A stretch of DNA of 13,732 nt, taken from the NCBI GenBank assembly GCA_016196885.1, contig JACPWU010000030.1:1-13732 (forward strand). The letters are read 5' to 3'. The translations under genes and the position numbers were made by a program. Of this stretch, positions 11 to 12,910 are shown one piece after another; position 1 is the first letter of the stretch; each line of letters starts with the position of its first letter. This DNA comes from Chlamydiota bacterium. Lineage in GTDB: Bacteria > Auribacterota > JACPWU01. Below the pieces are notes generated by a model that worked only from the letters and a program-made list of their open reading frames with translations, was not told the DNA's origin and searched no databases.

Positions 11-83
11 GTAGTCGCCCCATTTATGGGGCGGTCTATGACATTGGGGCATTGGGCATTGCCCGATAAATCGGGCGACTACA
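11..83 (-). repeat. Composite palindromic repeat, copy 1. It is inverted relative to the other copies: H2 hairpin, then H1 hairpin.
   Basis: GTAGTCGCCCCATTTATGGGGCG (11-33) and GCCCGATAAATCGGGCGACTACA (61-83) are the reverse complements of the H2 and H1 modules seen in the other six loci. The outer ends GTAGTCGCC / GGCGACTAC are mutually inverted. A degenerate terminal-IR-like AGTCATCATGAGTCAT follows at 84-99. Confidence 0.8.
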
Positions 84-141
84 AGTCATCATGAGTCATT
101 GTATAAGAAAGAGTAAAGACTATTTTCAGATGAAATGCGGG

Positions 142-1425
142 TTAAGGCAAGAGTTTGACAAGCAAATTGAAGGTTTTCTCAAGGGCCCCTTGATGCCAGG
201 ATAAAATTTCTTTGGCTTTGGCACCCAGGCGTTCCCGTTCTGAAGGAGAATTCAGTAGAGCATGAAGGGTTTCTTTTAGGAGAGCTGCATCTGTGACTTG
301 AATGGCCCCGCCCCATTCCGTAAAGGTGCTGGCCATGTCTTCAAAATTTTCCATGTGAGGGCCAAAAACAATGGGCTTTCCGAAACGCGCCGGCTCCAGA
401 AAATTTTGCCCCCCTTTGCGGGTCAGGCTTTTCCCGATAAAAACGACATCTGCAATGGAATAAATTTTTTCCAACTCTCCAACGGTGTCTACCACCAAAA
501 CATGATGAGAAGTTTGTAATTGAATCTTGGTTCTAAATTGAAAAGACAATCCTTTTTCTAAGAGCAGCTGGGCGACCTCATGGGAACGTTCAGGGTGCCG
601 AGGCACAAGAATCAAATAGAGTTGAGGAAAAACTTTTGCCAAATCTTGATAAATCTCTACGAGAATTTCTTCTTCCCCTGAATGCGTGCTGCCCGCCAAC
701 AAAATCAGAACACCTTGTGAAAATCCCAATTCTTCACGAAGAACATTTTTTTCAGACTCTTCCAGTGGCTCAAAATCATCTTTCTCATATTTTAAATTGC
801 CGACGACATGAACCCTGTTAGATTCAGCTCCCAGAAGCATCATTTTATTGGCCTCTTTGGCCGTAGGCCCCGTCATCAAAGAAAGCCCTTCGATAAAAGG
901 GGTGACAAAAAAACGGGCCTTTTGAAATTTTCGAAAGGAACGCAAGGACATTCGAACATTGATCAAAGCCACAGGAATTCTCTTGCGATAAACTTGCGAT
1001 AAAAAATTGGCCCATAACTCGCTCTCGGCCAAAACCACAAGACTCGGGTGAATCACATGAATGGCCCATGCGACCGAAAAATAGAAATCGAGGGGAAAAT
1101 AAAGAAGGGTGATGGAGTCCGCTAAATTTTCTTTTGCGATACGATTTCCAGTTCTCGTCACCGTGGTTAAAACAAGGTGATATTGAGGCTTTTCCTCCTG
1201 AAATTTCCTCAGCAAGGGAAGAATCGCCTTTACTTCGCCAACAGAGGCCGCATGAAACCAAATGGTTTTTCGCTTTTCTAGTTCTCTCACAATCGAAAAA
1301 GGGTAAAACCCCAACCTCATGGGAAGCCCTTCCCGCCATTTATCAGAAGAGATTAATTTGTACAAAAAATAAGGACTGGCGATGAGAAAAGAGATACAAA
1401 AGAGAATGTTGTACAGGATAAGCAT
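142..1425 (-). CDS. waaA: 3-deoxy-D-manno-octulosonic acid (Kdo) transferase, WaaA/KdtA
   Basis: Hallmark N-terminal motif IWFHAASVGEVKAILPLL, an LVLTTVTRTGNRIA segment, and C-terminal GGQNFLEPARFGKPIVFGPHMENFEDM. The track start at 1479 is a TTG. ATG at 1425 gives 427 aa starting MLILYNILF..., the hydrophobic N-terminus and length typical of WaaA. Confidence 0.9.
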   Translation of the reverse strand: MLILYNILFCISFLIASPYFLYKLISSDKWREGLPMRLGFYPFSIVRELEKRKTIWFHAASVGEVKAILPLLRKFQEEKPQYHLVLTTVTRTGNRIAKENLADSITLLYFPLDFYFSVAWAIHVIHPSLVVLAESELWANFLSQVYRKRIPVALINVRMSLRSFRKFQKARFFVTPFIEGLSLMTGPTAKEANKMMLLGAESNRVHVVGNLKYEKDDFEPLEESEKNVLREELGFSQGVLILLAGSTHSGEEEILVEIYQDLAKVFPQLYLILVPRHPERSHEVAQLLLEKGLSFQFRTKIQLQTSHHVLVVDTVGELEKIYSIADVVFIGKSLTRKGGQNFLEPARFGKPIVFGPHMENFEDMASTFTEWGGAIQVTDAALLKETLHALLNSPSERERLGAKAKEILSWHQGALEKTFNLLVKLLP

Positions 1426-1494
1426 AGTCTTATCGTCGTTCGTTGTTTGTCGTTTGTTTTTACGAAATACGAATGACAAACGACGAACGACTCA

Positions 1495-1704
1495 TTAAGC
1501 CCTAGGATGTGTTCCAATAAAATCTCTCATAAGGCCATATTCCCACATGGTCTCGACGCTGGCGACAGCGGCCCGCAATTCTACCGCAATCAATGGAATG
1601 CCTGCCAGAGAAATAATGATATCGGCGTTAATCACCAGTCCTTTGTCCAAAACCCGATCCAATAAATCTACGAGCGTCGCTCGACCTTGACGTGTGGGTT
1701 CCAT
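1495..1704 (-). CDS. GvpA-family gas vesicle protein (GvpJ/M/S-like minor paralogue)
   Basis: Core TLVDLLDRVLDKGLVINADIIISLAGIPLIAVELRAAVASVET matches the GvpA/J/M fold signature. ATG at 1704 is preceded by GGAGCGGAG-CAACAG. The upstream in-frame ATG at 1722 (75 aa) has no SD and lies in an AT-rich spacer, so the start is 1704 or 1722. Confidence 0.85.
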   Translation of the reverse strand: MEPTRQGRATLVDLLDRVLDKGLVINADIIISLAGIPLIAVELRAAVASVETMWEYGLMRDFIGTHPRA

Positions 1705-1776
1705 CTGTTGCTCCGCTCCCATTTATAATTAAAAATTAAGGAAAAGTTTATTTATTTTTAATTGATTCATTTGCCC

Positions 1777-2547
1777 TCAGGCAAATGAATAGGGTGGCCA
1801 AGGCCCTGTGAAACGAACGTCAAAACCTTGGATTTTCCCGATCTTTTCCAGTTCTCTCCCGAGAAGCACCACTTCGTCTTTCTCTTGCAGGCAGGAGAGA
1901 TTCATGATCATTTGTTTGGGTGGATTCTCTCGTCTGACTTTTTCGACATGGATTTCTTCAACACAATTGCGGATGCGCTGATAAAAATCCTTAAAATAGA
2001 CATTGGCCGCTTCTTCCAGTCGCTTTTTAATGATTTCAGCAAGTTTTCGTTCCAAAAGATAAGCGACCCCTTTGGGTTTGGACTGGATTTCCTTCTCCAG
2101 ATCCTGAATTTCTTTGTCATTGTGTCTAATTTTGGGAAGAACGATCGTAGGATCCCATATCACCTGTACACCATATTCCGCTTTACTTTTTAAACGCATC
2201 AATTTTCCACGAAGCTCTTCAGATTCTCTTTCCATCCAACCTTTAAGATTTTCACCCGCGGTCTTTCCGTCCATTGGCCGAATCACCATTCCAAAACTAA
2301 ATGGAAGAACAGTCTCATAACGCTCCCAGGCAATATCCACCACACTTTGATGAATCAAGAGCCCATCTGCAAGGACCTTTTGATCTTCAGATTGAATGGA
2401 CTTGGCCTCGCATTCCTCAACAACTGCAATCAGGCCTCGATGCAAAAGGGCCATGACAGGTTGTCCCCCAAGACCCCGAAGTTCCAGAGGTTCTTCCTGA
2501 TTCCCTTGGGCGAGACAATAGATATAAAGACCTTTATCGGTCATCAT
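1777..2547 (-). CDS. GvpF/GvpL family gas vesicle protein (paralogue 4)
   Basis: N-terminus GLYIYCLAQG..., LPFSFGMV, and C-terminal FDVRFTGPWPPYSFA are typical of GvpF/L. The track start at 2559 is a TTG that lies inside the RBS. ATG at 2547 follows GGAGGGAAAA. Confidence 0.85.
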   Translation of the reverse strand: MMTDKGLYIYCLAQGNQEEPLELRGLGGQPVMALLHRGLIAVVEECEAKSIQSEDQKVLADGLLIHQSVVDIAWERYETVLPFSFGMVIRPMDGKTAGENLKGWMERESEELRGKLMRLKSKAEYGVQVIWDPTIVLPKIRHNDKEIQDLEKEIQSKPKGVAYLLERKLAEIIKKRLEEAANVYFKDFYQRIRNCVEEIHVEKVRRENPPKQMIMNLSCLQEKDEVVLLGRELEKIGKIQGFDVRFTGPWPPYSFA

Positions 2548-2565
2548 TTTTCCCTCCAAATCAGA

Positions 2566-2635
2566 TCACTGTGCACGGCCCCATGAATGGGCGGCTACAT
2601 AATGGACGACACCTTTGAGTCAAGTGCATATGCCT
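2566..2635 (+). repeat. Composite palindromic repeat, copy 2. Right half only: H2 hairpin plus right terminal IR.
   Basis: GCCCCATGAATGGGCGGCTACA (2578-2599), then AATGGACGACACCTTTG, then AGTCAAGTGCATATGCCT (2618-2635). It fills the gvpK / gvpF-L gap and overlaps the last codons of gvpK. Confidence 0.8.
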
Positions 2636-2958
2636 TTTTCCTTATTCGTTTGGCGAGATGGAGCAATGCCATAAGGATCCGTTAAGCCTTGAACCATTGA
2701 ATCCACCCAATCATCTAATCCTTCCCGAACAGAACGAACAGCCTCCGTGACCCCCTGCTCTTCTTTCAAATGCTCAATCGCCTTATCCAACTCCATGAGG
2801 GTCACTCCAAGCCGATTGATTTCGTCTTCCGTAAGACTTCCCCCTTCCATTCTTTTAAGGGCTTGAATCCTCAAGGTGTCTCGAATCACCTCCACAATGG
2901 CCAAAACCAGGCCGAAGAGACCCTGTTTTAAATCTTTATCGTTCATTTCAAGTTTCAT
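2620..2958 (-). CDS. gvpK: Gas vesicle protein GvpK
   Basis: GLFGLVLAIVEVIRDTLRIQALKRMEGGSLTEDEINRLGVTLMELDKAIEHLKEE matches the conserved GvpK core. ATG start at 2958. The last four codons and the TGA stop lie inside repeat copy 2. Confidence 0.85.
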   Translation of the reverse strand: MKLEMNDKDLKQGLFGLVLAIVEVIRDTLRIQALKRMEGGSLTEDEINRLGVTLMELDKAIEHLKEEQGVTEAVRSVREGLDDWVDSMVQGLTDPYGIAPSRQTNKEKGICT

Positions 2959-2970
2959 GATGAGGTTGAC

Positions 2971-3153
2971 TTACCTCCCTTTCTTTCCAAACCTTCGATT
3001 CATTTCCTCTCGAATTTTTTTTATTCGACCCCCAAATATTTTGCTATTCTGGGCTTTTTGAAAGAAGGAACCAAAACCCGGAATCACCTTGCCAACCTTC
3101 TTCAAAATTTCATCCGCGACATCTTCTTTGTCTTTCTTATTCTCTTCAGACAT
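2971..3153 (-). CDS. Hypothetical small basic protein (60 aa) in the gvp operon
   Basis: ATG at 3153 is preceded by GGAGG with a 5-nt spacer. The track start at 3225 is a TTG whose extension would read through the left arm of repeat copy 3. The product MSEENKKDKEDV...PGFGSFFQK...GKKGR is charged with a Gly/Phe patch. I recognise no family. Confidence 0.5.
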   Translation of the reverse strand: MSEENKKDKEDVADEILKKVGKVIPGFGSFFQKAQNSKIFGGRIKKIREEMNRRFGKKGR

Positions 3154-3187
3154 GAATACCTCCTTTTTCAGCCTATGTGTTCCTATA

Positions 3188-3334
3188 AGGCTATGCAGTT
3201 GACTCAAGTACCTTTGGTCCGTCAAGTGTAGCCGCCCGATTTATCGGGCAAATCCATGCAAGGGGCAAGGCGCATTGCCCCATGAATGGGGCGACTACAA
3301 ATGAACGACATCTTTAAGTCAAGTGCATATGCCT
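3188..3334 (+). repeat. Composite palindromic repeat, copy 3 (full element, 147 bp)
   Basis: Left IR AGGCTATGCAGTTGACT (3188-3204). H1 TGTAGCCGCCCGATTTATCGGGC (3227-3249). Spacer AAATCCATGCAAGGGGCAAGGCGCATT. H2 GCCCCATGAATGGGGCGACTACA (3277-3299). Right IR AGTCAAGTGCATATGCCT (3317-3334). Confidence 0.85.
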
Positions 3335-3356
3335 ATATTCCTAACCTCCGACACTT

Positions 3357-3587
3357 CTATACTTTTTGTTCTGGAACCGGATGAGCTACCCTCATATCCG
3401 AGGGAAAGGCCAAACCCCATTTTGCCGCTGTTTCAAACGAGGCCAAGGCGGCCCGAATCTTAATGGAAAGAAGTTCCACATCGCAAAGTAAAATCACAAT
3501 ATCCGCGTTGATCACAAGCCCCTTATCGAGGATGCGCTCCACCACATCAGCCAATGAGTCTCCCTTTGTCGCGTGAGTGAATGGCAT
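3357..3587 (-). CDS. GvpA-family gas vesicle protein (GvpJ/M/S-like minor paralogue)
   Basis: SLADVVERILDKGLVINADIVILLCDVELLSIKIRAALASFET matches the GvpA-family core. ATG at 3587 immediately follows the TAA of the upstream gene (GAGGAGGCATAAATG), which suggests translational coupling. Confidence 0.85.
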   Translation of the reverse strand: MPFTHATKGDSLADVVERILDKGLVINADIVILLCDVELLSIKIRAALASFETAAKWGLAFPSDMRVAHPVPEQKV

Positions 3588-3839
3588 TTATGCCTCCTCA
3601 GGTCCAAAACCGGTGACATTAAACCCTTCATCCAGCGAAATCACATAACGGTTTTTATCAAAAATGGTCGGGTGACCCAATTTTTTCAGGTACTCGTTTT
3701 CTTCGGTCACTTCAATCGTTCCTTCCCATCCCATATCCGACTTCGCCAATTTCAAAACACGAATGGAGGCCGGATCCTTACCCAGCTCTTCCTGAACGAA
3801 TCCCGTGACCTTTACCTTCGCCTCATGAATATCAGACAT
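3588..3839 (-). CDS. gvpO: GvpO/GvpR-like gas vesicle protein
   Basis: Small acidic protein. MGWEGTIEVTEENEY...RYVISLDEGFNVTGF resembles the GvpO-family core (GW-x-V-x-VEV..., ...Y-x-V-x-LD). RBS AAGGAGGG lies 4 nt upstream of the ATG at 3839. Assigned from memory of the family signature. Confidence 0.6.
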   Translation of the reverse strand: MSDIHEAKVKVTGFVQEELGKDPASIRVLKLAKSDMGWEGTIEVTEENEYLKKLGHPTIFDKNRYVISLDEGFNVTGFGPEEA

Positions 3840-3854
3840 GAAACCCTCCTTCTC

Positions 3855-4112
3855 TTACAATTCTTCATCATTTGACTCTTCCCCCTCTTCTTCGACGGGT
3901 TCCTGACTCCTTTTGTCTATCTCATCCAGAATCCCCAAAATCTCCTTTTCCTTTAAATTATATTCTTCCTCCCCTATTTCACCCATATCCAATTTTGATT
4001 GGAGCAAAAGAAGACGCTCCATCACTTTCTCTCGGCTGCCGTATAATTCATCCTCGGCCATATCCTTAATCTTCTTGCCAAGCCAAATCGCCAAATCATC
4101 AAAGAAAAACAT
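3855..4112 (-). CDS. gvpG: Gas vesicle protein GvpG
   Basis: MFFFDDLAIWLGKKIKDMAEDELY...LLLLQSKLDMGEIGEEEYNLKEKEIL is the typical GvpG pattern (hydrophobic N-terminus, ELY, GEI-x-EEEY), followed by an acidic tail. Confidence 0.85.
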   Translation of the reverse strand: MFFFDDLAIWLGKKIKDMAEDELYGSREKVMERLLLLQSKLDMGEIGEEEYNLKEKEILGILDEIDKRSQEPVEEEGEESNDEEL

Positions 4113-4116
4113 GATT

Positions 4117-4926
4117 TTAAGACCTTTCGATCAGTTCCGCCTTCGACTGGAATTTTCCGCCTTCCTCCTCCAACTGAATGACAATCTCAACAAAGTTAAA
4201 GGGCGGAATAGGGCCCACATACTTAAACTGAATCTGGGAACCGTACCTGCCTTCTAGGTTGTTCACGACCTCATCAAAAGAGGCCTGTTTTTCATCCTCT
4301 ACAAGGAATGCAACATTCATAATATTGACATCCCCCAAAACATTTTGTTTTTTATGTTGAACAGCCCAAGGGGCAAGTTCATGGATCAGCGTTTCAGCCA
4401 TTTGAATGTTCTTCTCCTCCAAGGCCTCTTTCACCACATGCCCCACATCAATCAGAGCGGTGTGCCTTTCCTGTAAAGCCATTTTCATAATCTTCTCTTT
4501 AGCGGCAATCACCTTTTCGTTTTCCTGACTTAATTTTGAGAAAACCTCCTCCAGATTTTTCCACCTCGCCCTGAGGCCCAGCTCACTCTTACCTTGAATC
4601 TTTGCAAAGGTCTCCTGAAACTCCCTCACCTTCTCCTGACGCTTTAAAACCTGACGGACAATCTGATCCTTCGTCTCAGCCAGGGTGCAAAATTTCACGG
4701 GGAGCACCGGCTGAATTTGCATCACCTTTTCATTGACCAACTGATGAGCCATTAAAAAATCACGCGTCAGGTGATATTTCTTCATGGGCTCTTCTGAGAC
4801 CACAGCCGCAAAATCCCCATCGCTTACAACCTCAATCGCACTCGTGCCGTGAATCCCCTGAGCTTCAATCTTCAGAGGCGCTTTATTTTCAATCACGCAA
4901 TAGACCCAAAATCCCATCTTTTCCAT
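4117..4926 (-). CDS. GvpF/GvpL family gas vesicle protein (paralogue 3)
   Basis: MEKMGFWVYCVIEN..., LPVKFCTL, and C-terminal IQFKYVGPIPPFNFV. The track start at 4950 is a GTG. ATG at 4926 is preceded by AAGGAG with an 8-nt spacer. Confidence 0.85.
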   Translation of the reverse strand: MEKMGFWVYCVIENKAPLKIEAQGIHGTSAIEVVSDGDFAAVVSEEPMKKYHLTRDFLMAHQLVNEKVMQIQPVLPVKFCTLAETKDQIVRQVLKRQEKVREFQETFAKIQGKSELGLRARWKNLEEVFSKLSQENEKVIAAKEKIMKMALQERHTALIDVGHVVKEALEEKNIQMAETLIHELAPWAVQHKKQNVLGDVNIMNVAFLVEDEKQASFDEVVNNLEGRYGSQIQFKYVGPIPPFNFVEIVIQLEEEGGKFQSKAELIERS

Positions 4927-4950
4927 AACATCAGCTCCTTCATTAACCAC

Positions 4951-5058
4951 TGCCCCATAAATGAGGCGACTACATCACGATTCACTACCTGCCCCATGAA
5001 TGGGGCGACTACAATGGCCTGCTACTTGTAGTCGCCCGATTTATCGGGCAATCCATGC
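4951..5058 (+). repeat. Composite palindromic repeat, copy 4 (rearranged order H2, H2, H1)
   Basis: GCCCCATAAATGAGGCGACTACA (4952-4974), GCCCCATGAATGGGGCGACTACA (4991-5013), TGTAGTCGCCCGATTTATCGGGC (5027-5049), followed by AATCCATGC as in the other copies. There are no terminal IRs. Confidence 0.8.
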
Positions 5059-5065
5059 TACGCAG

Positions 5066-5812
5066 CTATTCATTCCAATGTAGTTGCAGGGTTACAAAAC
5101 TAAAGGGGGCCATGGGCCCCACCGATTTGACGTCCAGCCTGTCCCCAAATTTCTCAGCCAATTTTTCAGCGGATTGATCAAATTCCTTGAGCCAATCCTT
5201 ATCAATTAAAAAGGCTTCATGGATGACAACCTCATCGGCCCCAGACTCCATCGTTTTAGAGCCCTTTGCCAATTTTTTAAACGGCACGAGATAGCCTTCA
5301 CCCTCTGCCGCCTTTTTTTTCTCCAACGCAGCCGCTACCAGTTCCCCCGCGTGAATGAGGTCTCTTTGAGTTTGAGGGGGTTTAGCGGATTTCAAGTCTC
5401 GAATCTTTCGATTCTCCTGGGCAATTTCTTGATAAATTTTCTTCATGTCTTTCCAACGAACCTTGATGTCCATTTCAACTTTTCCATCCATATCTCTCAA
5501 AAGATCCGTCAACTCCTTCGAATTCCTTTCCAAAAATGAAATAATTTCGTCTGAGGTATCGGCCACCGTGCAGAAACGCATCGGAAGAATATTATATAAC
5601 TCCATCACCTTCTCGATCACCTTCATGTGGGCGGTCATATTTTCTCTGGAAAGGACGTAATGATCCATCGAGGCATTGCTCACCACGGCCGCTAGGCCCT
5701 CAGAACCAAGGGTCATCACCTCGTCCGATTGCCCCCCAATCCCAATGGGGCCAAAATTCTCAGCCCCATTGCTGGAAATAATCCCGTAAATATATTTTCC
5801 CACATGCTTCAT
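5066..5812 (-). CDS. GvpF/GvpL family gas vesicle protein (paralogue 2)
   Basis: MKHVGKYIYGIISSNGAENFGPIG..., LPMRFCTV, and C-terminal LDVKSVGPMAPFSFV. ATG at 5812. Confidence 0.85.
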   Translation of the reverse strand: MKHVGKYIYGIISSNGAENFGPIGIGGQSDEVMTLGSEGLAAVVSNASMDHYVLSRENMTAHMKVIEKVMELYNILPMRFCTVADTSDEIISFLERNSKELTDLLRDMDGKVEMDIKVRWKDMKKIYQEIAQENRKIRDLKSAKPPQTQRDLIHAGELVAAALEKKKAAEGEGYLVPFKKLAKGSKTMESGADEVVIHEAFLIDKDWLKEFDQSAEKLAEKFGDRLDVKSVGPMAPFSFVTLQLHWNE

Positions 5813-5815
5813 AAC

Positions 5816-6820
5816 CTAACCCTTTCCATTGATTTGAAACAAGTCCACCTTCCAGGGCTGACGACCTCCCTGACAGTAATCTAGCAGCAGGTCATACGCC
5901 TCGTGAATTTTTTGGAATTCCTGATCGTCCAATTCGGGATGAATGTCCGGATGGCATTTCCGTGATTTCTCTTTATAGGCGTGTTTCACCGTTTCCAAAT
6001 TTTGATCGCCTTCCAAACCTAACACCTCCTTCGCCCGGCGGATCTCTCGCTCCTCAAATTCCTTGACCAAAATCATAGAAAAACTATAAAGCGGCAGAGG
6101 TCCAATGCAACGAAAATTAAATTTTCCCCCACATATCCGATCCAGATGCTCGACGGTCTTAAAAAACGAATCCTCCTGGCCATTTTTGAGCAAAAAGGAG
6201 GCGTTTAAAACCATGTCGTCATTCATCGTGTCATGTAAGGCGCTCTCTTGACTCACTTTTTTTAAGGAAAACAGAATCTCGTCAGCCCATTGATTCGCAT
6301 AGTCCTTTAATTTTGCCGCTAGGCTCATCCCCAAGGCAATCTTTTCATCCTTTTCTCTCTCAGGCGAAAATGTTTGAATCGCTTTTATCCGACTTTCAAT
6401 TTCTGGATCGCCTTCAGCCATTCCTTTTAGAACCTCCCTGGAATCCCAAGTGACCACGACATCCGTCTCGAAACAATCCTTCATCTTTGAAATCCACTCC
6501 TCAAGACGCCTCTCGTTTTGTAAAAGGACCGCACGTACTTCTTCCTGATCCCTTAAGACAGTCCCAAATTTGCACGGGAGAATAAATTGGCTCTTCATAA
6601 TCATCTCCAGCGTCTCCTGATGCGTTAATAAGGTCTTGACCAATCTTTCTTTGCTCAAAAGTCCGAAATCTTCCTCAGGCGCGGGTCCAATCACGGCGGC
6701 AATATTTCGACTGGGCAGAGCTTCAACCTTTCCCCTTCCAAAGTCCGCTGTTTCAAAACCGATTGCGCCAAAGTCTTTTAACGCGTTCGATTCAACAATC
6801 CCGTAAAGATAAGAACGCAT
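5816..6820 (-). CDS. GvpF/GvpL-family domain fused to a C-terminal DnaJ-type J-domain
   Basis: Residues 1-250 look like GvpF/L (SYLYGIVESNALKDFGAIG, LPCKFGTV, FNFRCIGPLPLYSF). Residues ~258-316 read AKEVLGLEGDQNLETVKHAYKEKSRKCHPDIHPELDDQEFQKIHEAYDLLLDY, a J-domain with HPD encoded at 5945-5953 (CAT CCG GAC on the minus strand). Confidence 0.85.
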   Translation of the reverse strand: MRSYLYGIVESNALKDFGAIGFETADFGRGKVEALPSRNIAAVIGPAPEEDFGLLSKERLVKTLLTHQETLEMIMKSQFILPCKFGTVLRDQEEVRAVLLQNERRLEEWISKMKDCFETDVVVTWDSREVLKGMAEGDPEIESRIKAIQTFSPEREKDEKIALGMSLAAKLKDYANQWADEILFSLKKVSQESALHDTMNDDMVLNASFLLKNGQEDSFFKTVEHLDRICGGKFNFRCIGPLPLYSFSMILVKEFEEREIRRAKEVLGLEGDQNLETVKHAYKEKSRKCHPDIHPELDDQEFQKIHEAYDLLLDYCQGGRQPWKVDLFQINGKG

Positions 6821-6831
6821 ATCTTAACCTC

Positions 6832-9012
6832 TCACTTTTTAGCCTTCCGAGCGATTTGAATCGCCTCTTGGAAATGTTCTTTCCTCACAACAAATTTCTC
6901 CACCAATCCATTGGACTTATCTTGATGCTCTCCAATAAATTCCCTAATCGCCAAGGTCACCGCCTGCCTGCAAAGGGCTGCAATATCGGCCCCGCTGGCC
7001 CCTTCTGTTTCTCGAGCCAGCGCTTCTTTGTCCACCTTTTTTTCGACTGGGGTTCCCTTCAAATGAATCTGAAATATCCCCTCTCGTGCTTTAAGATCCG
7101 GAGGACCCAGCATAATAATATGATCAAATCGGCCCGGCCGGATCAGGGCCGGGTCAATCAAATCCACTCGATTGGTCGCACCCAAGATAATCACGCCTCG
7201 AAGCTCCTCCGTCCCATCTAACTCTGTTAAAAATTGACTAAGGGTCCGACCCATAACCCCGGAATCACCATCGCCTGAGCCCCTTCTCGGAGCCATGGAA
7301 TCCATCTCATCAAAAAATAGAACACAGGGAGCCGCGGACCTTGCCTTTTTAAAAATCTCCCGAACGCCTTTTTCAGTCTCCCCCACATATTTCGAAACCA
7401 ATTCAGGGCCTTTAATCGAAATGAAATTGACCTCGGACTCCGTTGCCAACGCCTTTGCGAGTAAAGTTTTCCCCATTCCTGGAGCACCTATCAGAAGAAC
7501 CCCTTTATTGGGTTTGAGATTTGCCTTCTCGAAAACCTTCGCATAGTGAAGGGGCCACTCTGCTCCCTCGATGAGCAATTTTTTCACAGCTTCAAGTCCC
7601 CCAATATCCGACCAGCGCACATGGGGAGTCTCTAGTGAGACCTCACGAATGGCGGAGGGCTCCACCTCATTCAATGCCTGTGTAAAATGTTCTTGTGTCA
7701 CTTCCAGGGACTCGATCACTTCAAGGGGAAGGTCTTCGATGCGCATTCCTCTTTTTTCCAAAACCTGTCTCAGGCAGCTCATCGCGGCCTCCCTGGCCAA
7801 TGCCTCAACATCAGCCCCCACATAGCCATGGGTGATATCCGCTATCCTCTCCAAACTCACATCTTCGGCCAGGGGCATTCCACGCGTATGGATTTCAAGT
7901 ATTTTAAGCCGTCCATTGCGATCCGGAATTCCAATCGTAATCTCGCGATCAAACCGGCCGGGCCGCCTCAAAGCAGGATCCAAAAGATCCGGCATATTGG
8001 TCGCCCCAATCACAATCAGCTCGCCCCGCGATTTTAATCCATCCAAAAGAGACAAAAGCGTGGCGACAATTCTTTTCTCTACCTCCCCCTGGACATTCGC
8101 CCTCTTGGGGGCCACTGAATCAATTTCATCAATGAAGATAATGGCTGGGGCATGGAGCCTCGCCTCTTCAAAAATGGATCGTAAATGACTTTCGGATTCG
8201 CCGTAAAATTTATGCACGATCTCAGGGCCATTGATCGTGTAGAAATTGGCCTCCGATTCATGAGCCACCGCGCGGGCAATCAAGGTCTTTCCTGTCCCTG
8301 GAGGTCCATAGAGAAGAACCCCCTTCGGGGGATCAATTCCCAATCGCTCAAACACCTCAGGATGTTTAAGGGGCAGTTCCACCATCTCCCGAATTCTCTG
8401 AATCTCCCTGGTCAAGCCACCAATGTCCTCGTAAGAAACACCGGGACGAGTCTTTTCTTCACCCTTTACAGCCTCCCCTTCAATTTTGATTTGCGTTGAA
8501 GATGTGATGAGAAGAGGACCCTCGGGCGAAGTATTCACCACTTCAAAATCTCGAGTCCTCGATCCAAAAAGAGTCGCGCGGACCCGATCCCCTTTAAGGA
8601 CAGGCAACCCCTCCAGGAGACGGCCCACATAAGGATCAGACGAAGGCAGGGCACCTTGTTTTGAGGAACTCAGCGTTGTTTTGAGCCACAAGGTTCTCGC
8701 GGGCTCAGCAGTTGTAGCAAAAACTAAAACCTTCCCATCTAAGCCAATTTTTGCATTTTCGCGAGTGACTCCATCAATCTGAATGTAATGCTTCCCTCGA
8801 TACTCCTCGTAGGTCGGAGCCAGCTTCGCCACCGTCTTATGCTTGCCTTCAATAAATATAATATCCCCGACATGGCAGCCCAATTTTTCCATATCGGACG
8901 GATCCAAGCGGGCAATCCCACGCCCTACATCCCTCACCAAAGCTTCTGCAACACGGAAAGTGAGGGAATCAGACTTAGAATCAGCTTGTTCCTTTTTTAC
9001 AGTACTGGCCAT
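6832..9012 (-). CDS. Cdc48/VAT/p97-type AAA+ ATPase (N domain plus D1 and D2 rings)
   Basis: N domain: RVAEALVRDVGRGIARLDPSDMEKLGCHVGDIIFIEGK. D1: Walker A GPPGTGKT (8284-8307), Walker B IIFIDEID, pore loop KFYGESE, PALRRPGRFDREI. D2: Walker A GAPGMGKT (7465-7488), Walker B VLFFDEMD, pore loop SKYVGETE, PALIRPGRFDHII. RBS GAGGTG lies 5 nt before the ATG at 9012. Confidence 0.92.
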   Translation of the reverse strand: MASTVKKEQADSKSDSLTFRVAEALVRDVGRGIARLDPSDMEKLGCHVGDIIFIEGKHKTVAKLAPTYEEYRGKHYIQIDGVTRENAKIGLDGKVLVFATTAEPARTLWLKTTLSSSKQGALPSSDPYVGRLLEGLPVLKGDRVRATLFGSRTRDFEVVNTSPEGPLLITSSTQIKIEGEAVKGEEKTRPGVSYEDIGGLTREIQRIREMVELPLKHPEVFERLGIDPPKGVLLYGPPGTGKTLIARAVAHESEANFYTINGPEIVHKFYGESESHLRSIFEEARLHAPAIIFIDEIDSVAPKRANVQGEVEKRIVATLLSLLDGLKSRGELIVIGATNMPDLLDPALRRPGRFDREITIGIPDRNGRLKILEIHTRGMPLAEDVSLERIADITHGYVGADVEALAREAAMSCLRQVLEKRGMRIEDLPLEVIESLEVTQEHFTQALNEVEPSAIREVSLETPHVRWSDIGGLEAVKKLLIEGAEWPLHYAKVFEKANLKPNKGVLLIGAPGMGKTLLAKALATESEVNFISIKGPELVSKYVGETEKGVREIFKKARSAAPCVLFFDEMDSMAPRRGSGDGDSGVMGRTLSQFLTELDGTEELRGVIILGATNRVDLIDPALIRPGRFDHIIMLGPPDLKAREGIFQIHLKGTPVEKKVDKEALARETEGASGADIAALCRQAVTLAIREFIGEHQDKSNGLVEKFVVRKEHFQEAIQIARKAKK

Positions 9013-9108
9013 CTTTCACCTCGTTTCCAAAGCCCAATCGTACGCTCGAAACCCCAACACCCAAGGGAACCGCGCAAAAGCCGGGGTTTGGAAAAGAATA
9101 TATTCATT

Positions 9109-9227
9109 AGCATATGTATTTGACTCTAAAGCGTAGCCGCCCGATTCATCGGGCAATCCCCCATGCACGGCCCCATGAATGGGGCGACTACAAATGGACG
9201 ACATTTTTAGGTCAAATACATGAGCCT
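9109..9227 (+). repeat. Composite palindromic repeat, copy 5 (full element, 119 bp)
   Basis: Left IR AGCATATGTATTTGACT (9109-9125). H1 GCGTAGCCGCCCGATTCATCGGGC (9131-9154). H2 GCCCCATGAATGGGGCGACTACA (9170-9192). Right IR AGGTCAAATACATGAGCCT (9209-9227). Confidence 0.85.
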
Positions 9228-9233
9228 GTAGAT

Positions 9234-9788
9234 CTATTTTTCTTTCTTCCTGAGCTTCAACTCCAACATCCCATTTTTATAACTGACTTGGGCACCCGCT
9301 TCCTCCACGGGTGTTTTAAGCAAAATCTCTTTGCTGTACTTACGCTTTCCCGTCGTGGATAAATTCACCACATCCCCATGAATCTCGTAATGAATCTCAC
9401 TCTCGCTTACCCCTGGCAGCTCGGAAACAATTTGCACTGTAGTACTATCCTCAAAAACATCCACAATGGGCTCTCGGGTCTCTTCCACGACCGGACCTTT
9501 GGGGGTTTTTTTAATATTGCCAAAGGCCTCAACGACAGGTTTTGTCTTTCCACCGGCCCCTGCCATGGTCCGAACGGTGAAGCCAAACACCCCTTTCATA
9601 TCCTTCTGGCCAGGCACTGTAAATTCACCCTCCTTTTGAATCACGCCTCCCTCTTCCTTAATCTTGTCAGCAAGTTCAATTAAATTCCCCAATCCTTGAA
9701 ACAACCCGCCAAAAAGGCCCCCCGTCTTAAACTCAAAGGGAAATTTAACCTCTTCACCCGACTCATCCTTTTTCTTTTCTTTTTTCAT
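9234..9788 (-). CDS. Hsp20/alpha-crystallin family small heat-shock protein
   Basis: Alpha-crystallin domain: VDVFEDSTTVQIVSELPGVSESEIHYEIHGDVVNLS...AQVSYKNGMLELKLRKK (the A-x-x-x-NG-x-L-x-x-x-L-x-K signature). N-terminal Lys/Glu-rich and Gly/Phe-rich extension (GGLFGGLFQGLG). The track start at 9797 is a GTG. ATG at 9788 follows GGAGGTGGAGGAT. Confidence 0.85.
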   Translation of the reverse strand: MKKEKKKDESGEEVKFPFEFKTGGLFGGLFQGLGNLIELADKIKEEGGVIQKEGEFTVPGQKDMKGVFGFTVRTMAGAGGKTKPVVEAFGNIKKTPKGPVVEETREPIVDVFEDSTTVQIVSELPGVSESEIHYEIHGDVVNLSTTGKRKYSKEILLKTPVEEAGAQVSYKNGMLELKLRKKEK

Positions 9789-9830
9789 ATCCTCCACCTC
9801 CAGTCTCTCTCTTTCAGTGAATTAAAATTT

Positions 9831-10132
9831 AGGCATACGTACTTGCCCCACGCATCCTCGTAGCGTAGCCGCCCGATTTATCCCCCCACCCAATCCAGCT
9901 GTTATCTTTAGCACGTTCGTAAGCTTATGACCCGTGCATTGATCGCTAAACAATCCCGCCACCTTCGATAGATTGGGTGGGGGGATGAATCGGGCAAATC
10001 CATGCAAGGGGCACGGCCCCATAAATGGGGCGACTACATCCGTCAAGCGTAGTCGCCCGATTTATCGGGCAACATCCATGCACGGCCCCATAAATGGGGC
10101 GACTACAAATGGACTCAGTGCGTAAGCCCATA
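9831..10132 (+). repeat. Composite palindromic repeat, copy 6. Two tandem H1-H2 units inside one pair of degenerate terminal IRs; the first H1 is expanded into a 25-bp-arm hairpin.
   Basis: Left IR AGGCATACGTACTTGCCC (9831-9848). Expanded H1 arms GCCCGATTTATCCCCCCACCCAATC (9871-9895) and GATTGGGTGGGGGGATGAATCGGGC (9971-9995). H2 (10015-10038). H1 GCGTAGTCGCCCGATTTATCGGGC (10047-10070). H2 (10085-10107). Degenerate right IR TCAGTGCGTAAGCC (~10115-10128). Confidence 0.8.
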
Positions 10133-10135
10133 AAA

Positions 10136-10468
10136 TTAATACGCCAGACTCATCTTCTTCACCCGACTGCCACTTTCTCGCAATTCTTTTTGCTCAGCTT
10201 TTTTGTGAGGCCGCCTGCCTGAAAGCTTTCGATACTGACTCTCAGTCCCCCGAATATCCGCTTCAATCCCTTTCATAATCTCCTTGGCTTCGTGCAACTG
10301 ATGCGTCAAGGTGTTGATTTTGCTGAGCAAACTCTGACGCCGGACCGTGAGAATATAAAGCCGATTGACCTGTTGAACCGTTCCGGTATTCTTAAGAGTA
10401 ACGGTCCGGATATCTGAAGAGCCTCGACTGGTTGAAGATCTCCTCAATAATTTCATTTGCACTGGCAC
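10136..10468 (-). CDS. Hypothetical coiled-coil protein directly downstream of gvpN (position of gvpV in Serratia/Anabaena-type clusters)
   Basis: Intact ORF 18 nt downstream of gvpN, with AAGGAGGG upstream. The start is ambiguous: GTG 10468, GTG 10462 or ATG 10456. It has a basic N-terminus and a helical segment LLSKINTLTHQLHEAKEIMKGIEADIRG. The GvpV assignment rests on synteny only, not on recognised sequence. Confidence 0.45.
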   Translation of the reverse strand: MPVQMKLLRRSSTSRGSSDIRTVTLKNTGTVQQVNRLYILTVRRQSLLSKINTLTHQLHEAKEIMKGIEADIRGTESQYRKLSGRRPHKKAEQKELRESGSRVKKMSLAY

Positions 10469-10486
10469 GGCCCTCCTTTTTTTCTT

Positions 10487-11440
10487 TTAAGGGTCTCTTT
10501 TCGGTTTCTTCCCATTCAAACCAAATTGATGAATGGCTCTCTCCACCACTTCCTTGACCTTGGCTGAAGTTGTCTTACTTCCGATTCTCGAAGTTTCTGA
10601 ACAAAGAACATCCAGACAAATCTGTTTAAAAAGAGAATGGTCCGCACCCAGACAAACCCCTTTTCCATAATCCTGAACGGTTTTGGCAATCATGATACAG
10701 CCCCGAATGGTGGGCGCAAATTCATACTGGCCATGCTCCCTCAAATAGCGAACGATCTTCACAATCTTTAAGGCGACTTCCCTGGAAAGTCCTGATCTTC
10801 TTGCAGTAATCGCGCATTCTGTCTCCTCATCAAAGGGCTCCAGATCCAGTGTCACCATCCGATCCCGAAGCGCATCTTGAGAGCGATGAACGCCGGCGTA
10901 TTCCTCCGGATTCGAAGTAAAAATAGCCCGAAAATTGGGATGAACCTTGATACAACTCTCTCCATCGTTTCTACCCCCTCCGGGAAGATCCAGAATTCCC
11001 TCCTGAAGAACCGAAAGAAGAATATTATTGGCCTCAGGCCTTGAACGGGTAAATTCGTCATAAATCAGCGTATAACCATTTTCCACAGCGACCGTCAAAC
11101 GGTTATCCACCCATCGCTTAGAAGAGTCTTCTTCAACCTTCAAAACAGAAGCAATAAAATTATCTCGAAGTTTGCTCACATGATAACCCGTCTGAGCCCC
11201 CACCAATTCGTCTGTGGTCAGTTGTTCATCTCCATGGATCATAATGACGGGCCTTTCTAAGAGCTCGGCAACACGCAGGGCCGATGTCGTTTTCCCTGTC
11301 CCCGAAATCCCTCTAAAATGGACAGGAAAACCCGCATTCAAATAATGGAGGGCCCTCCCTTGAATTCCTTTAACGAAGGGCGTCTCTACAAAATCCGCCC
11401 CCGCCTTCGGTTGTAAAATTGTAATCTCACTGGTTTCCAT
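10487..11440 (-). CDS. gvpN: Gas vesicle AAA+ ATPase GvpN
   Basis: FVETPFVKGIQGRALHYLNAGFPVHFRGISGTGKTT (Walker A encoded at 11288-11311), Walker B TLIYDEFTRS, and FRAIFTSNPEEYAGVHRSQDALRDR. Length (317 aa) and motifs are typical of GvpN. Confidence 0.9.
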   Translation of the reverse strand: METSEITILQPKAGADFVETPFVKGIQGRALHYLNAGFPVHFRGISGTGKTTSALRVAELLERPVIMIHGDEQLTTDELVGAQTGYHVSKLRDNFIASVLKVEEDSSKRWVDNRLTVAVENGYTLIYDEFTRSRPEANNILLSVLQEGILDLPGGGRNDGESCIKVHPNFRAIFTSNPEEYAGVHRSQDALRDRMVTLDLEPFDEETECAITARRSGLSREVALKIVKIVRYLREHGQYEFAPTIRGCIMIAKTVQDYGKGVCLGADHSLFKQICLDVLCSETSRIGSKTTSAKVKEVVERAIHQFGLNGKKPKRDP

Positions 11441-11515
11441 TTTAAACCTTTAGGGGAGATCAGGCCCTCCGACATCGCGTCTGGGGGCGTGATCTTCCGC
11501 GAAATTTTTTGATCC

Positions 11516-11917: not shown

Positions 11918-11938
11918 GATATTCATCTCCTTTCCTAA

Positions 11939-12562: not shown

Positions 12563-12665
12563 GAAAACTCCTCCACTTTTCTTTGGAAAAGCTTGGTTTG
12601 GCAAAGTCAAGCTCACCTGAAATCATCCGCTAAACTCGTGTCTGAGGTCGGCTCGACAAACCATT

Positions 12666-12694: not shown

Positions 12695-12910
12695 CTACGC
12701 AGGCTGAGCCGCCGTCTGTGTAAGACCGATCGCTTCAGCATACTTAAGATAGGTCTCGACACCCGCGCATACGACACGGGCTTCCACGCTCAGGAACTCA
12801 ATTCCCACCAACGAGACCCTGGCCCATGCATCGATCACGATTCCCTTATCCAGAATCCGATCGACAACCTCTGCTAATGAAGAACTCGCCATTGATTTTT
12901 GAACTGCCAT
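12695..12910 (-). CDS. gvpA: Major gas vesicle structural protein GvpA
   Basis: [71 protein letters not shown] is nearly canonical GvpA over its whole 71-aa length. ATG at 12910 is preceded by AAGGAAGGTG. The track start at 12958 is a TTG extension that would overlap the predicted transcription start. Confidence 0.95.

What the first reader, a model, noticed from the sequence alone, without database searches (positions are those of the whole stretch)
5816..6820. GvpF/L paralogue fused to a DnaJ J-domain with an intact HPD motif
The first ~250 residues carry the GvpF/L signatures: YLYGIV start, LPCKFGTV, and GPLPLYSF near the domain end. The last ~75 residues read as a canonical J-domain: helix II AYKEKSRKC, HPD at residues 290-292 (nt 5945-5953), and helix III QEFQKIHEAYDLLLDY. 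J-domains recruit Hsp70/DnaK and stimulate its ATPase. GvpF/L proteins are thought to bind GvpA and nucleate or assist shell assembly. The fusion would therefore tether DnaK directly to the gas vesicle assembly machinery. I am not aware of a described link of this kind, and the three other GvpF/L paralogues in the cluster lack the domain.
Basis: partly seen in the sequence, partly recalled or inferred. Interest (0 to 1): 0.78.

Follow-up and report, generated by a model that had tools for sequence, protein, structure and literature searches.

The report
Gas vesicle GvpF fused to J-domain
One of the four GvpF/L gas-vesicle assembly proteins in this cluster carries a real, strongly conserved Hsp70-recruiting J-domain; the fusion is widespread across bacterial phyla yet apparently undescribed, and it suggests that the Hsp70 chaperone system is wired directly into gas vesicle building.

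Summary
ORF 5816-6820(-) encodes 334 aa with GvpL_GvpF at residues 4-248 (E 4e-48) and a DnaJ J-domain at 265-314 (39.9 bits; gathering score 27.8), with HPD at 290-292.

It is not an artefact. 80 of 80 orthologues from species-representative genomes labelled with more than 25 phyla carry both domains. HPD is invariant in all 80, although mean column identity is only 31%. The J-domain is as conserved as the GvpF domain, and dN/dS is 0.13.

The AlphaFold model (pLDDT 91) matches GvpF crystal structures. It superposes on J-domains at 1.2-1.9 Å, including the one solved on DnaK. Helix IV is replaced by a terminal β-strand.

The gene follows a Cdc48-type double-ring AAA+ ATPase gene by 11 nt, and an Hsp20-like gene lies upstream of that. 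Cdc48 abuts the fusion in 39 of 57 informative loci. At least 9 of 80 related clusters encode their own Hsp70; in one it ends 4 nt before the fusion gene.

Best reading: a class-C J-protein whose GvpF domain holds a GvpA-family shell subunit and hands it to Hsp70. No paper describing this was found.

Verdict: real; a new variant of known kinds; moderately high interest; function untested.

The parts
5816..6820 (-). gvpF-J gene: a 334-aa GvpF/L paralogue with a C-terminal J-domain. A GAGAGG Shine-Dalgarno-like sequence lies upstream. The gap to the Cdc48 stop is 11 nt and the gap to the next gvpF start is 3 nt.
   Evidence: Identical protein P0001 is in NCBI as 'GvpL/GvpF family gas vesicle protein [Chlamydiae bacterium]'.
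6077..6811 (-). GvpL_GvpF domain (residues 4-248)
   Evidence: Pfam PF06386, E 3.7e-48. The model matches GvpF crystal structures 6L5D and 4QSG at E 1e-13, TM-score (target-normalised) 0.70-0.77.
5870..6052 (-). J-domain helices I-III (residues 257-317). There is no helix IV.
   Evidence: Pfam PF00226, 39.9 bits, profile positions 4-55 of 63. DSSP on the model gives H257-267, H275-289 and H299-317. Rmsd to solved J-domains is 1.2-1.9 Å.
5945..5953 (-). HPD tripeptide (His290-Pro291-Asp292), the motif that activates the Hsp70 ATPase
   Evidence: Read directly from the sequence. Invariant in 80 of 80 orthologues and kept in 20 of 22 metagenomic relatives.
5837..5854 (-). C-terminal β-strand (residues 323-328) that takes the place of J-domain helix IV. 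It probably docks back on the GvpF domain.
   Evidence: The model has E323-328 after E249-254, with pTM 0.82. A hydrophobic terminal strand recurs in the orthologue tails.
6832..9012 (-). Cdc48/VAT-type double-ring AAA+ ATPase (726 aa) directly upstream. It has N-domains, two Walker A/B sets and aromatic pore loops (KFYG, KYVG).
   Evidence: TIGR01243 CDC48, 901.5 bits against a cutoff of 802.65. Pfam CDC48_N, CDC48_2 and two AAA domains. It abuts the fusion in 39 of 57 loci with enough upstream DNA.
9234..9797 (-). Hsp20-like small heat-shock protein (187 aa)
   Evidence: NF041800 Hsp20, E 4.8e-35, 120.6 bits, below the cutoff of 140. Weak Pfam HSP20 match. A homologue is present in 41 of 46 loci with at least 5 kb upstream.
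10487..11440 (-). gvpN (AAA+ ATPase)
   Evidence: TIGR02640, 318.8 bits against a cutoff of 266.8
12695..12910 (-). gvpA, the major shell protein. The likely true start is the internal ATG, giving 71 aa.
   Evidence: Pfam Gas_vesicle, E 2.7e-15. The L001 orthologue is 71 aa.
5066..5812 (-). gvpF/L paralogue 2 (248 aa, no J-domain)
4117..4950 (-). gvpF/L paralogue 3 (277 aa, no J-domain)
1777..2559 (-). gvpF/L paralogue 4 (260 aa, no J-domain)
1495..4112 (-). The rest of the cluster, holding likely clients and partners: gvpG (3855-4112), a GvpA/J-family gene (3357-3587), gvpK (2620-2958), a GvpA/S-family gene (1495-1722), and small unassigned ORFs (3588-3839 and 2971-3225).

Best explanation
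The gene encodes a specialised class-C (type III) J-domain co-chaperone for gas vesicle biogenesis. Its N-terminal GvpF/L domain is the client-binding module. In studied systems GvpF binds monomeric GvpA and GvpL binds GvpJ/M. Its C-terminal J-domain, mounted on the GvpF body by a terminal β-strand, docks Hsp70(DnaK)-ATP through helix II, HPD and helix III and triggers ATP hydrolysis. Hsp70 then clamps onto the very hydrophobic, aggregation-prone GvpA-family subunit presented by GvpF. This keeps shell subunits soluble and assembly-competent, or releases them from GvpF at the growing vesicle. The gene works within a conserved block of an Hsp20-like holdase, a Cdc48-type unfoldase and GvpF-J. 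This block resembles the sHSP / Hsp70-J / Hsp100 disaggregation triad but is dedicated to one organelle. In this window the partner must be the housekeeping DnaK; some related clusters bring their own Hsp70. Shown here: domain identity, fold, selection on HPD, gene neighbourhood and distribution. Inferred: Hsp70 recruitment, the client identity, and the direction of action (assembly or recycling).
For: Both domains are significant. The AF2 model has pLDDT 91.3 and pTM 0.82. Foldseek matches GvpF structures 6L5D and 4QSG at E 1e-13, and J-domains at rmsd 1.2-1.9 Å, including 5NRO_B, the DnaJ J-domain bound to DnaK. 80 of 80 orthologues have both Pfam domains. H290, P291 and D292 are 3 of only 16 invariant columns at 31% mean column identity. 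Positions matching DnaJ R22, Y25, K26, F47, A53, Y54 and L57 are kept in roughly 72-98% of sequences when similar residues are counted. Mean pairwise identity is 0.403 for the J-domain and 0.405 for the GvpF domain. dN/dS is 0.13 for J and 0.18 for GvpF. Hsp70 genes lie inside related gvp clusters. In L018 an Hsp70 (768 bits; passes the DnaK equivalog cutoff) ends 4 nt before the fusion gene. In L011, L021, L025, L052, L053, L062, L073 and L082 an Hsp70 follows the last gvp gene on the same strand. The Cdc48-type AAA+ gene abuts the fusion in 39 of 57 informative loci, and the sHSP is present in 41 of 46. From the literature: GvpF binds monomeric GvpA and is proposed to act as its chaperone, and GvpA/J/M aggregate without chaperones (PMC9501494). 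[quoted passage not shown]
Against: There is no biochemical evidence of any kind. J-domain helix IV is absent: the Pfam match stops at profile position 55 of 63, and the model has a β-strand there. The window's own cluster has no Hsp70, and only 13.7 kb of the genome is visible, so the presence of DnaK in this organism is assumed. Some relatives have lost the motif or the domain: P0020 has QPD, P0022 has HSA, the K. racemifer isolate has a broken J-domain, and L085 has sHSP-Cdc48-GvpF without J. The J-domain is therefore dispensable in some lineages. Which Gvp protein this particular paralogue binds is extrapolated from haloarchaeal and cyanobacterial GvpF/L. It scores below the NCBIfam GvpF and GvpL equivalog cutoffs. 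The tight coupling to Cdc48 could mean the key partner is that ATPase and not Hsp70.
Confidence: 0.7

Rival explanations
1. GvpF-J is mainly a substrate adaptor for the neighbouring Cdc48-type unfoldase. The sHSP-Cdc48-GvpF-J block would extract GvpA from off-pathway aggregates or collapsed vesicles for recycling or quality control. It would not serve de novo assembly, and Hsp70 would be an auxiliary partner, as in sHSP/Hsp70/ClpB disaggregation.
For: Cdc48 ends 11 nt before the fusion gene here and abuts it in 39 of 57 loci. The adjacency persists with a J-less GvpF in L085. Both Cdc48 rings have Walker motifs and aromatic pore loops (translation). [quoted passage not shown]
Against: 9 of the 57 informative loci have no Cdc48 in the fetched DNA but keep an intact HPD, for example L018 and L082, which have an Hsp70 instead. 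No J-domain is known to bind a Cdc48-type ATPase. Cdc48 lacks the ClpB M-domain through which Hsp70 couples to Hsp100 (established knowledge). This rival overlaps the best explanation and does not exclude it.
Confidence: 0.2
2. The J-domain is a structural or J-like appendage that no longer activates Hsp70. It might serve, for example, as an oligomerisation or docking module within the nucleation complex.
For: Helix IV is missing and the domain is pinned to GvpF by a β-strand. A few relatives carry QPD or HSA in place of HPD.
Against: HPD is invariant in 80 of 80 orthologues at about 31% overall identity, and the helix II basic face and the core residues are kept. J-like proteins characteristically lose HPD. 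Hsp70 genes co-localise with the fusion in at least 9 clusters.
Confidence: 0.06
3. The fusion is an assembly or frameshift artefact that joins a gvpF gene and a separate dnaJ-like gene.
For: None found. The source is a MAG contig, which is the only reason to ask.
Against: The same architecture occurs in one continuous ORF in 83 independent loci from many assemblies and in more than 150 protein-cluster representatives. An 89%-identical copy lies on a 50-kb contig of another MAG, with dN/dS well below 1.
Confidence: 0.01

Closest known systems
GvpF (Microcystis aeruginosa 4QSG; Anabaena PCC 7120 6L5D) and haloarchaeal GvpF/GvpL
   Same: The N-terminal 250 residues have the same fold and Pfam family. 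The gene lies in a gvp cluster beside gvpG, gvpK and GvpA-family genes. The literature assigns GvpF/L to binding GvpA or GvpJ/M and to nucleating assembly.
   Different: All characterised GvpF/L proteins end at the GPLPxYSF region. None has a J-domain, and the model clusters listed in the review (Halobacterium, Anabaena, Microcystis, B. megaterium, Serratia, Streptomyces) are not listed with a Cdc48-type ATPase or an Hsp70 (Table 1 of PMC9501494). This protein scores below the NCBIfam GvpF and GvpL equivalog cutoffs.
Class C (type III) J-domain proteins with a dedicated client module, e.g. HscB (Fe-S scaffold IscU with HscA), auxilin/GAK (clathrin lattice with Hsc70) and Mycoplasma TopJ (terminal organelle)
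   Same: The logic is the same: a J-domain with HPD is joined to a module that binds one specific client or structure, so that Hsp70 acts at that site. There is no G/F region, zinc finger or DnaJ C-terminal domains. TopJ appears among the weak NCBIfam J-domain matches.
   Different: The client module (GvpF/L) is new for a J-protein. The J-domain is C-terminal, lacks helix IV and is tied back by a β-strand. No sequence relationship exists outside the J-domain. The comparison with HscB and auxilin rests on established knowledge and was not tested here.
Bacterial DnaJ / CbpA / DjlA J-domains
   Same: Helices I-III, HPD, the basic helix II face and the hydrophobic core are shared. Identity to DnaJ J-domains is 33-37% at rmsd 1.2-1.5 Å.
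   Different: It fails every full-length DnaJ, CbpA and DjlA NCBIfam model by hundreds of bits. Only the J-domain is shared.
sHSP (IbpA/B) - DnaK/DnaJ - ClpB disaggregation triad
   Same: Three adjacent genes supply an Hsp20-like protein, a double-ring AAA+ unfoldase and a J-domain protein. This is the same division of labour.
   Different: The AAA+ is of Cdc48/VAT type (N-domain, no M-domain), not Hsp100. The J-protein is client-specific. Cooperation among the three is inferred from gene order only.
ArsA/Get3-type ATPase and Hsp20 genes in gvp operons (Castillo & Saier 2010, PMC2963123)
   Same: This is a prior report that accessory ATPase and chaperone genes travel with gvp clusters. The same ArsA-type gene is in 38 of 80 related loci.
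   Different: That paper does not mention DnaJ, Hsp70 or DnaK at all. The window's cluster has no ArsA homologue.

Membership tests
J-domain proteins (Hsp40/DnaJ family, PF00226) | Significant match to the J-domain profile above the curated threshold | tested here: met
   39.9 bits against a gathering score of 27.8; 43.1 bits for the isolated tail. 80 of 80 orthologues match.
J-domain proteins (Hsp40/DnaJ family, PF00226) | His-Pro-Asp tripeptide in the loop between helices II and III | tested here: met
   Residues 290-292. Invariant in 80 of 80.
J-domain proteins (Hsp40/DnaJ family, PF00226) | Helix II/III antiparallel hairpin fold with a basic helix II face | tested here: met
   Model helices 275-289 and 299-317. 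Rmsd is 1.2-1.9 Å to solved J-domains, including the DnaK-bound 5NRO_B. K/R at position 279 in 95% of sequences; R or K at 283.
J-domain proteins (Hsp40/DnaJ family, PF00226) | Fourth helix completing the canonical four-helix J-domain | tested here: not met
   The Pfam match ends at profile position 55 of 63. The model has β-strand 323-328 there instead. By established knowledge (the 5NRO complex), the Hsp70 interface uses helix II, HPD and helix III, so this does not argue against function.
J-domain proteins (Hsp40/DnaJ family, PF00226) | HPD-dependent stimulation of Hsp70 ATPase | not testable with these tools
   Needs biochemistry. The indirect support is Hsp70 genes inside related clusters.
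Class A/B DnaJ (DnaJ, CbpA) | G/F-rich region, zinc-finger region (class A) and C-terminal substrate-binding domains | tested here: not met
   Only positions 4-59 of the DnaJ and CbpA models match, at scores of 15-35 bits against cutoffs of 338-619. The protein is therefore class C.
GvpF/GvpL family (PF06386) | Full-length match to the GvpL_GvpF profile | tested here: met
   Residues 4-248 match profile positions 3-244 of 245, E 3.7e-48.
GvpF/GvpL family (PF06386) | GvpF two-domain α/β fold | tested here: met
   Foldseek hits 6L5D_B and 4QSG at E 1.2e-13, probability 1.00, TM-score (target-normalised) 0.77 and 0.70.
GvpF/GvpL family (PF06386) | Encoded in a gvp cluster with gvpA, gvpN, gvpG, gvpK and GvpJ/S-type genes | tested here: met
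   The synteny is conserved in L001 and L003.
GvpF/GvpL family (PF06386) | Orthology to cyanobacterial GvpF or to GvpL (NCBIfam equivalogs) | tested here: not met
   NF052351 scores 79.8 against a cutoff of 350. NF045778 scores 39.9 against a cutoff of 200. It is a distinct paralogue group that sits first in the run of gvpF genes.
GvpF/GvpL family (PF06386) | Binds GvpA-family shell proteins | not testable with these tools
   Known for the haloarchaeal GvpF-GvpA and GvpL-GvpJ/M pairs (PMC9501494). Not tested for this paralogue.
Hsp70 / J-protein / Hsp100 bi-chaperone disaggregase | ClpB/Hsp104-type AAA+ with an M-domain that docks Hsp70 | tested here: not met
   The adjacent AAA+ is of the CDC48 family (TIGR01243, 901.5 bits). 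ClpA-type models score about 32 bits. The system may work like this triad, but it is not a member.

The most novel reading that the evidence does not exclude
The conserved block sHSP - Cdc48-type AAA+ - GvpF-J, with a cluster-encoded Hsp70 and/or a Get3/ArsA-type ATPase in some lineages, is a self-contained proteostasis machine dedicated to one client. The sHSP holds GvpA-family subunits, GvpF-J targets Hsp70 to them, and the bacterial Cdc48 homologue unfolds or extracts them. This would feed monomers into the growing shell or dismantle collapsed shells. It would be the first case of a bacterial Cdc48-type ATPase cooperating with Hsp70 through a client-specific J-adaptor. It would also be a host-chaperone requirement that could explain why many gas vesicle clusters fail to assemble in heterologous hosts.
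Probability: 0.3. Interest if true: 0.82.

Novelty: new variant of a known kind. Interest (0 to 1): 0.66.

Why it matters
How cells keep the extremely hydrophobic, amyloid-like GvpA soluble and insert it into a growing gas-filled shell is a long-standing open question. The roles of the GvpF/L proteins are still described only as 'nucleation' or 'chaperone-like'. A GvpF paralogue that carries an invariant Hsp70-activating motif gives that question a concrete, testable handle. It predicts that GvpF acts as a client adaptor and that Hsp70 takes part in gas vesicle biogenesis or turnover. It also predicts that HPD point mutants should separate the two activities.

It matters in practice too. Gas vesicle clusters are being engineered as acoustic reporter genes, heterologous expression causes proteotoxic stress (PMC12848028), and that paper notes that a number of screened clusters do not assemble in E. 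coli. Clusters of this type bring chaperone-recruiting parts that could be transplanted, or whose host dependence would need to be matched. The family is large and spans many uncultured phyla. The model clusters listed in the field's review do not include a Cdc48-type ATPase or an Hsp70 gene, which probably explains why the fusion has gone unremarked.

Tried and rejected
- **Artefact hypothesis:** rejected on comparative grounds.
- **AFDB fold search (afdb50):** intended to find named UniProt examples, but the library was unavailable.
- **Model coordinates:** not exposed to scripts. I therefore could not measure how exposed the HPD loop is or identify the pairing partner of the terminal strand. 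The statement that the strand docks on the GvpF domain rests only on the secondary-structure string and on pTM.
- **Second word-indexed protein search (using the 80-sequence profile):** scored only 8000 candidates and returned few named organisms, so it did not yield the hoped-for list of cultured hosts. Cultured examples come from the genome scan instead: Oscillochloris sp. ZM17-4 is intact, while the Ktedonobacter racemifer isolate is broken.
- **Regex scan for Hsp70 signatures:** found only 3 loci. A tblastn with the L018 and L082 Hsp70 proteins found 9, which is still a lower bound because loci are cut at 10 kb.
- **Strict J-Cdc48 co-dependence:** considered and rejected. L085 has Cdc48-GvpF without J, and L018 and L082 have the J-domain without Cdc48.
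- **Assigning the paralogue to 'GvpF' or 'GvpL':** the NCBIfam scores are all far below cutoff, so I left it unassigned.
- **Literature:** nine full-text searches combining gas vesicle or gvp terms with J-domain, DnaJ, Hsp70, Cdc48, co-chaperone, ArsA and chlamydia found no description of the fusion. Subscription-only papers are not covered.
Full report
**1. The observation**

The window is a single minus-strand gas vesicle (gvp) cluster. It is flanked by an AbiEii toxin fragment (13301-13693) and by kdtA (142-1479). ORF 5816-6820(-) encodes 334 aa. It starts 11 nt after the stop of the upstream gene and ends 3 nt before the start of the next gvpF.

Pfam finds GvpL_GvpF at residues 4-248 (E 3.7e-48). 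It finds a DnaJ J-domain at 265-314 (39.9 bits; gathering score 27.8). The last 84 residues alone score 43.1 bits. The three other GvpF/L paralogues (248, 277 and 260 aa) match only PF06386.

**2. It is not an artefact, and it is not rare**

The identical protein is deposited as 'GvpL/GvpF family gas vesicle protein [Chlamydiae bacterium]'. About 20 further protein clusters, down to 31% identity, carry both Pfam domains.

A scan of one genome per species found 189 genomes with a relative. The best 80 all align through the J-domain. All 83 extracted ORFs have GPLPxYSF followed by a 78-125-residue tail containing HPD. A Pfam scan of the 80-member alignment A2 (the window protein plus 79 of those ORFs) gives 80 of 80 for GvpL_GvpF and 80 of 80 for DnaJ.

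An exhaustive profile search of 1.84 billion representatives gave 813 hits at E ≤ 1e-30. For nearly all of the top 150 representatives (50%-identity clusters) the best stretch runs to about profile position 320, so they include the J-domain.

The record titles span more than 25 phylum-level labels. They include Nitrospirota, Planctomycetota, Elusimicrobia, Chloroflexota, Omnitrophota, Acidobacteria, Zixibacteria, NC10, Verrucomicrobiota, Actinomycetota, Chlorobi and Proteobacteria. Most are MAGs. Oscillochloris sp. ZM17-4 is the only record in the list not flagged as a MAG or single-cell assembly, and appears to be an isolate; its fusion is intact (39.2 bits for DnaJ).

**3. Selection on the J-domain**

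In A2 the mean column identity is 31%. H290, P291 and D292 are three of only 16 invariant columns. Mean pairwise identity is 0.403 for the J-domain, 0.405 for the GvpF domain, and 0.465 for helix II plus HPD.

Positions were matched to E. coli DnaJ by my own alignment on HPD. The DnaJ residues are named from established knowledge of the DnaK-J complex.

| Position here | E. coli DnaJ | Residues kept |
|---|---|---|
| 279 | R22 | K/R, 95% |
| 282 | Y25 | Y/H, 98% |
| 283 | K26 | R 60%; other residues in the rest (K in the window) |
| 302 | F47 | F, 91% |
| 308 | A53 | A, 97% |
| 309 | Y54 | Y, 94% |
| 312 | L57 | L, 95% |

Between the window and its 89%-identical relative L001, dN/dS is 0.13 for the J-domain and 0.18 for the GvpF domain. 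There are exceptions. P0020 has QPD and P0022 has HSA. The K. racemifer isolate's protein breaks off after helix II.

**4. Structure**

AlphaFold2 on the 22-sequence alignment gave pLDDT 91.3 and pTM 0.82. Foldseek against the PDB puts GvpF from Anabaena (6L5D) and Microcystis (4QSG) first, at E 1e-13. Many J-domains follow at rmsd 1.2-1.9 Å over 52-57 residues. They include T. thermophilus DnaJ and the DnaJ J-domain solved on DnaK (5NRO_B).

The J-domain has helices I (257-267), II (275-289) and III (299-317). In place of helix IV there is a terminal β-strand (323-328) that follows strand 249-254. Together with the high pTM, this suggests the J-domain is an excursion between two strands and is held rigidly on the GvpF body. 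There is no G/F region, zinc finger or DnaJ C-terminal domain, and full-length DnaJ, CbpA and DjlA models fail by hundreds of bits. The protein is therefore a class-C J-protein.

**5. Neighbourhood**

- The upstream gene (6832-9012) is a CDC48-family AAA ATPase (TIGR01243, 901.5 bits against a cutoff of 802.65). It has both N-subdomains, two Walker A/B sets and aromatic pore loops.
- Upstream of that lies an Hsp20-like protein (NF041800, E 4.8e-35, below its cutoff).
- Further upstream lies GvpN.
- The whole order is syntenic in another 'Chlamydiae' MAG and in a Candidatus Eisenbacteria MAG.

Among 57 loci with at least 2.4 kb upstream, Cdc48 ends within 400 nt of the fusion start on the same strand in 39. 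It lies elsewhere in the locus in 9 and is absent in 9. In 12 of the 23 shorter loci a partial Cdc48 abuts the fusion. An sHSP homologue is present in 41 of 46 loci with at least 5 kb upstream. In L085 the same sHSP-Cdc48-GvpF block has a J-less GvpF. The Cdc48-GvpF pairing may therefore be the older link and the J-domain a later addition (inference).

**6. Hsp70 genes inside related clusters**

- In L018 (an Anaerolineales MAG with no Cdc48) a 599-aa Hsp70 ends 4 nt before the GvpF-J gene. It scores 768 bits on PF00012 and passes the DnaK equivalog cutoff.
- In L082 (Phycisphaerales, no Cdc48) an Hsp70 and two Hsp20 genes follow the last gvp gene.
- The same terminal position (…gvpK - gvpF - GvpA-family gene → Hsp70) recurs in L011, L021, L025, L052, L053, L062 and L073.

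Nine of 80 is a lower bound, because several loci are cut by the 10-kb flank inside that gene. By rough reasoning, a given gene should lie within 10 kb of dnaK in well under 1% of genomes. The window's own cluster has kdtA at that position, so here the partner would be the housekeeping DnaK (inferred; the rest of the genome is not visible).

**7. Mechanism**

From the literature, GvpF binds monomeric GvpA and is thought to keep it soluble. GvpL binds GvpJ/M and acts as a platform. GvpA, GvpJ and GvpM aggregate without chaperones (PMC9501494). Heterologous expression is proteotoxic unless the assembly factors are made first (PMC12848028). [quoted passage not shown]

Combining this with the anatomy gives the best-supported model. 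GvpF-J is a client-specific J-protein: the GvpF domain presents a GvpA-family subunit, and the J-domain fires Hsp70's ATPase so that Hsp70 captures it. The sHSP would act as a holdase and Cdc48 as an unfoldase in the same pathway.

It is open whether the pathway serves assembly, release of GvpF from the shell, or recycling of collapsed or misassembled shells. The main rival places the weight on Cdc48 and on recycling.

**8. Comparison with what is known, and novelty**

The two domains are ordinary members of their families. The protein passes the J-domain tests except for helix IV. It passes the GvpF/L tests except for orthology to the curated GvpF and GvpL equivalogs.

The combination is what is new. 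Nine full-text searches found no paper that links GvpF, or gas vesicles generally, to a J-domain, Hsp40 or Hsp70 partnership, or to a bacterial Cdc48. The 2010 paper that noted ArsA and Hsp20 genes in gvp operons never mentions DnaJ, Hsp70 or DnaK. Databases already hold the domain hits, but the product name is just 'GvpL/GvpF family'.

I rate it a new variant of known kinds: a class-C J-protein with a new client module, and equally a GvpF paralogue with a new effector domain. Functional analogues are HscB, auxilin and TopJ. The finding is robust and widespread, and it makes the GvpF 'chaperone' idea directly testable, but it has no experimental support yet.

**9. Limits**

- All functional statements are inferred from sequence, a predicted structure and gene context.
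- The loci are phylogenetically non-independent, so the counts are not event counts.
- Only the best 80 of the 189 genome hits were inspected.
- The library of papers omits most subscription journals.

Noticed in passing
window 8-86, 2573-2638, 3218-3337, 4937-5057, 9123-9230, 9855-10145, 13056-13163: A family of REP-like palindromic elements fills most of the larger intergenic gaps of the gvp cluster and both ends of the window. The core is TTGTAGTCGCCCCATTTATGGGGC or GCCCGATTTATCGGGC. Copies occur in both orientations and often as inverted pairs. They generate spurious ORFs with recurring 'CSRPIYGAV' peptides. None touches the gvpF-J gene.
   Followed up: partly
window 1-13732; L001: The depositors label the source MAG 'Chlamydiae bacterium'. 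The flanking core gene kdtA has its best named relatives in other 'Chlamydiae/Chlamydiota bacterium' MAGs (63%, 46% and 38% identity), and no cultured chlamydiae appear among the top 120 hits. A full gas vesicle cluster in a chlamydia-affiliated lineage would be unexpected for a group known as intracellular symbionts. The placement was not verified.
   Followed up: partly
window vs L001 (GCA_016196915.1): The gvp proteins are 77-99% identical between the two MAGs, but the adjacent kdtA product is only 63% identical, although the cluster sits at the same genomic position (AbiEii on one side, kdtA on the other). This could reflect stronger constraint on the cluster or recent exchange of it.
   Followed up: no
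L008, L011, L018, L023, L025, L034, L036, L040, L052-L054, L062, L072, L082 (two-domain form); many Planctomycetota, Elusimicrobia and Nitrospirota loci (single-domain form about 3 kb upstream of the fusion): A Get3/TRC40/ArsA-family ATPase gene sits inside 38 of 80 related gvp clusters. The double-domain form lies downstream of the gvpF genes. The single-domain form lies upstream of the fusion, roughly 3 kb from its start. The association with gvp operons was reported in 2010 (PMC2963123). Given Get3's role with hydrophobic tail-anchor segments, it may be another holder of GvpA-type proteins. It is absent from this window.
   Followed up: partly
P0212 (Ktedonobacter racemifer isolate, 318 aa): The orthologue in this cultured strain has GvpF plus J-domain helices I-II. 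It then continues with about 35 residues resembling the C-terminus of the Cdc48 ATPase (39% identity, E 3e-4 in a single comparison). HPD and helix III are missing. It looks like a deletion chimera between the two neighbouring genes, which suggests a decayed cluster.
   Followed up: partly
L085 (GCA_041643155.1) 278-3722: A gvp cluster with the same sHSP - Cdc48 - GvpF order, but the GvpF is 249 aa with no J-domain, and GvpO is present. It shows that the Cdc48-GvpF pairing exists independently of the fusion.
   Followed up: no
window 11939-12616, 11516-11926, 10136-10468, 3588-3839, 2971-3225: Five conserved cluster ORFs (225, 136, 110, 83 and 84 aa) have no significant Pfam or NCBIfam match, yet they have homologues at the same positions in L001, L003 and L004. 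By position, the 110-aa ORF after gvpN might be a GvpO analogue and the 225-aa ORF after gvpA a GvpC analogue; neither idea was tested.
   Followed up: no
window 13301-13693 (-): A 130-aa ORF matches only the C-terminal part of the AbiEii toxin nucleotidyltransferase (profile positions 118-175 of 238). L001 has a full 233-aa AbiEii gene at the equivalent place. The ORF list starts this ORF at an internal GTG, so the gene here may be truncated or its true start missed.
   Followed up: no
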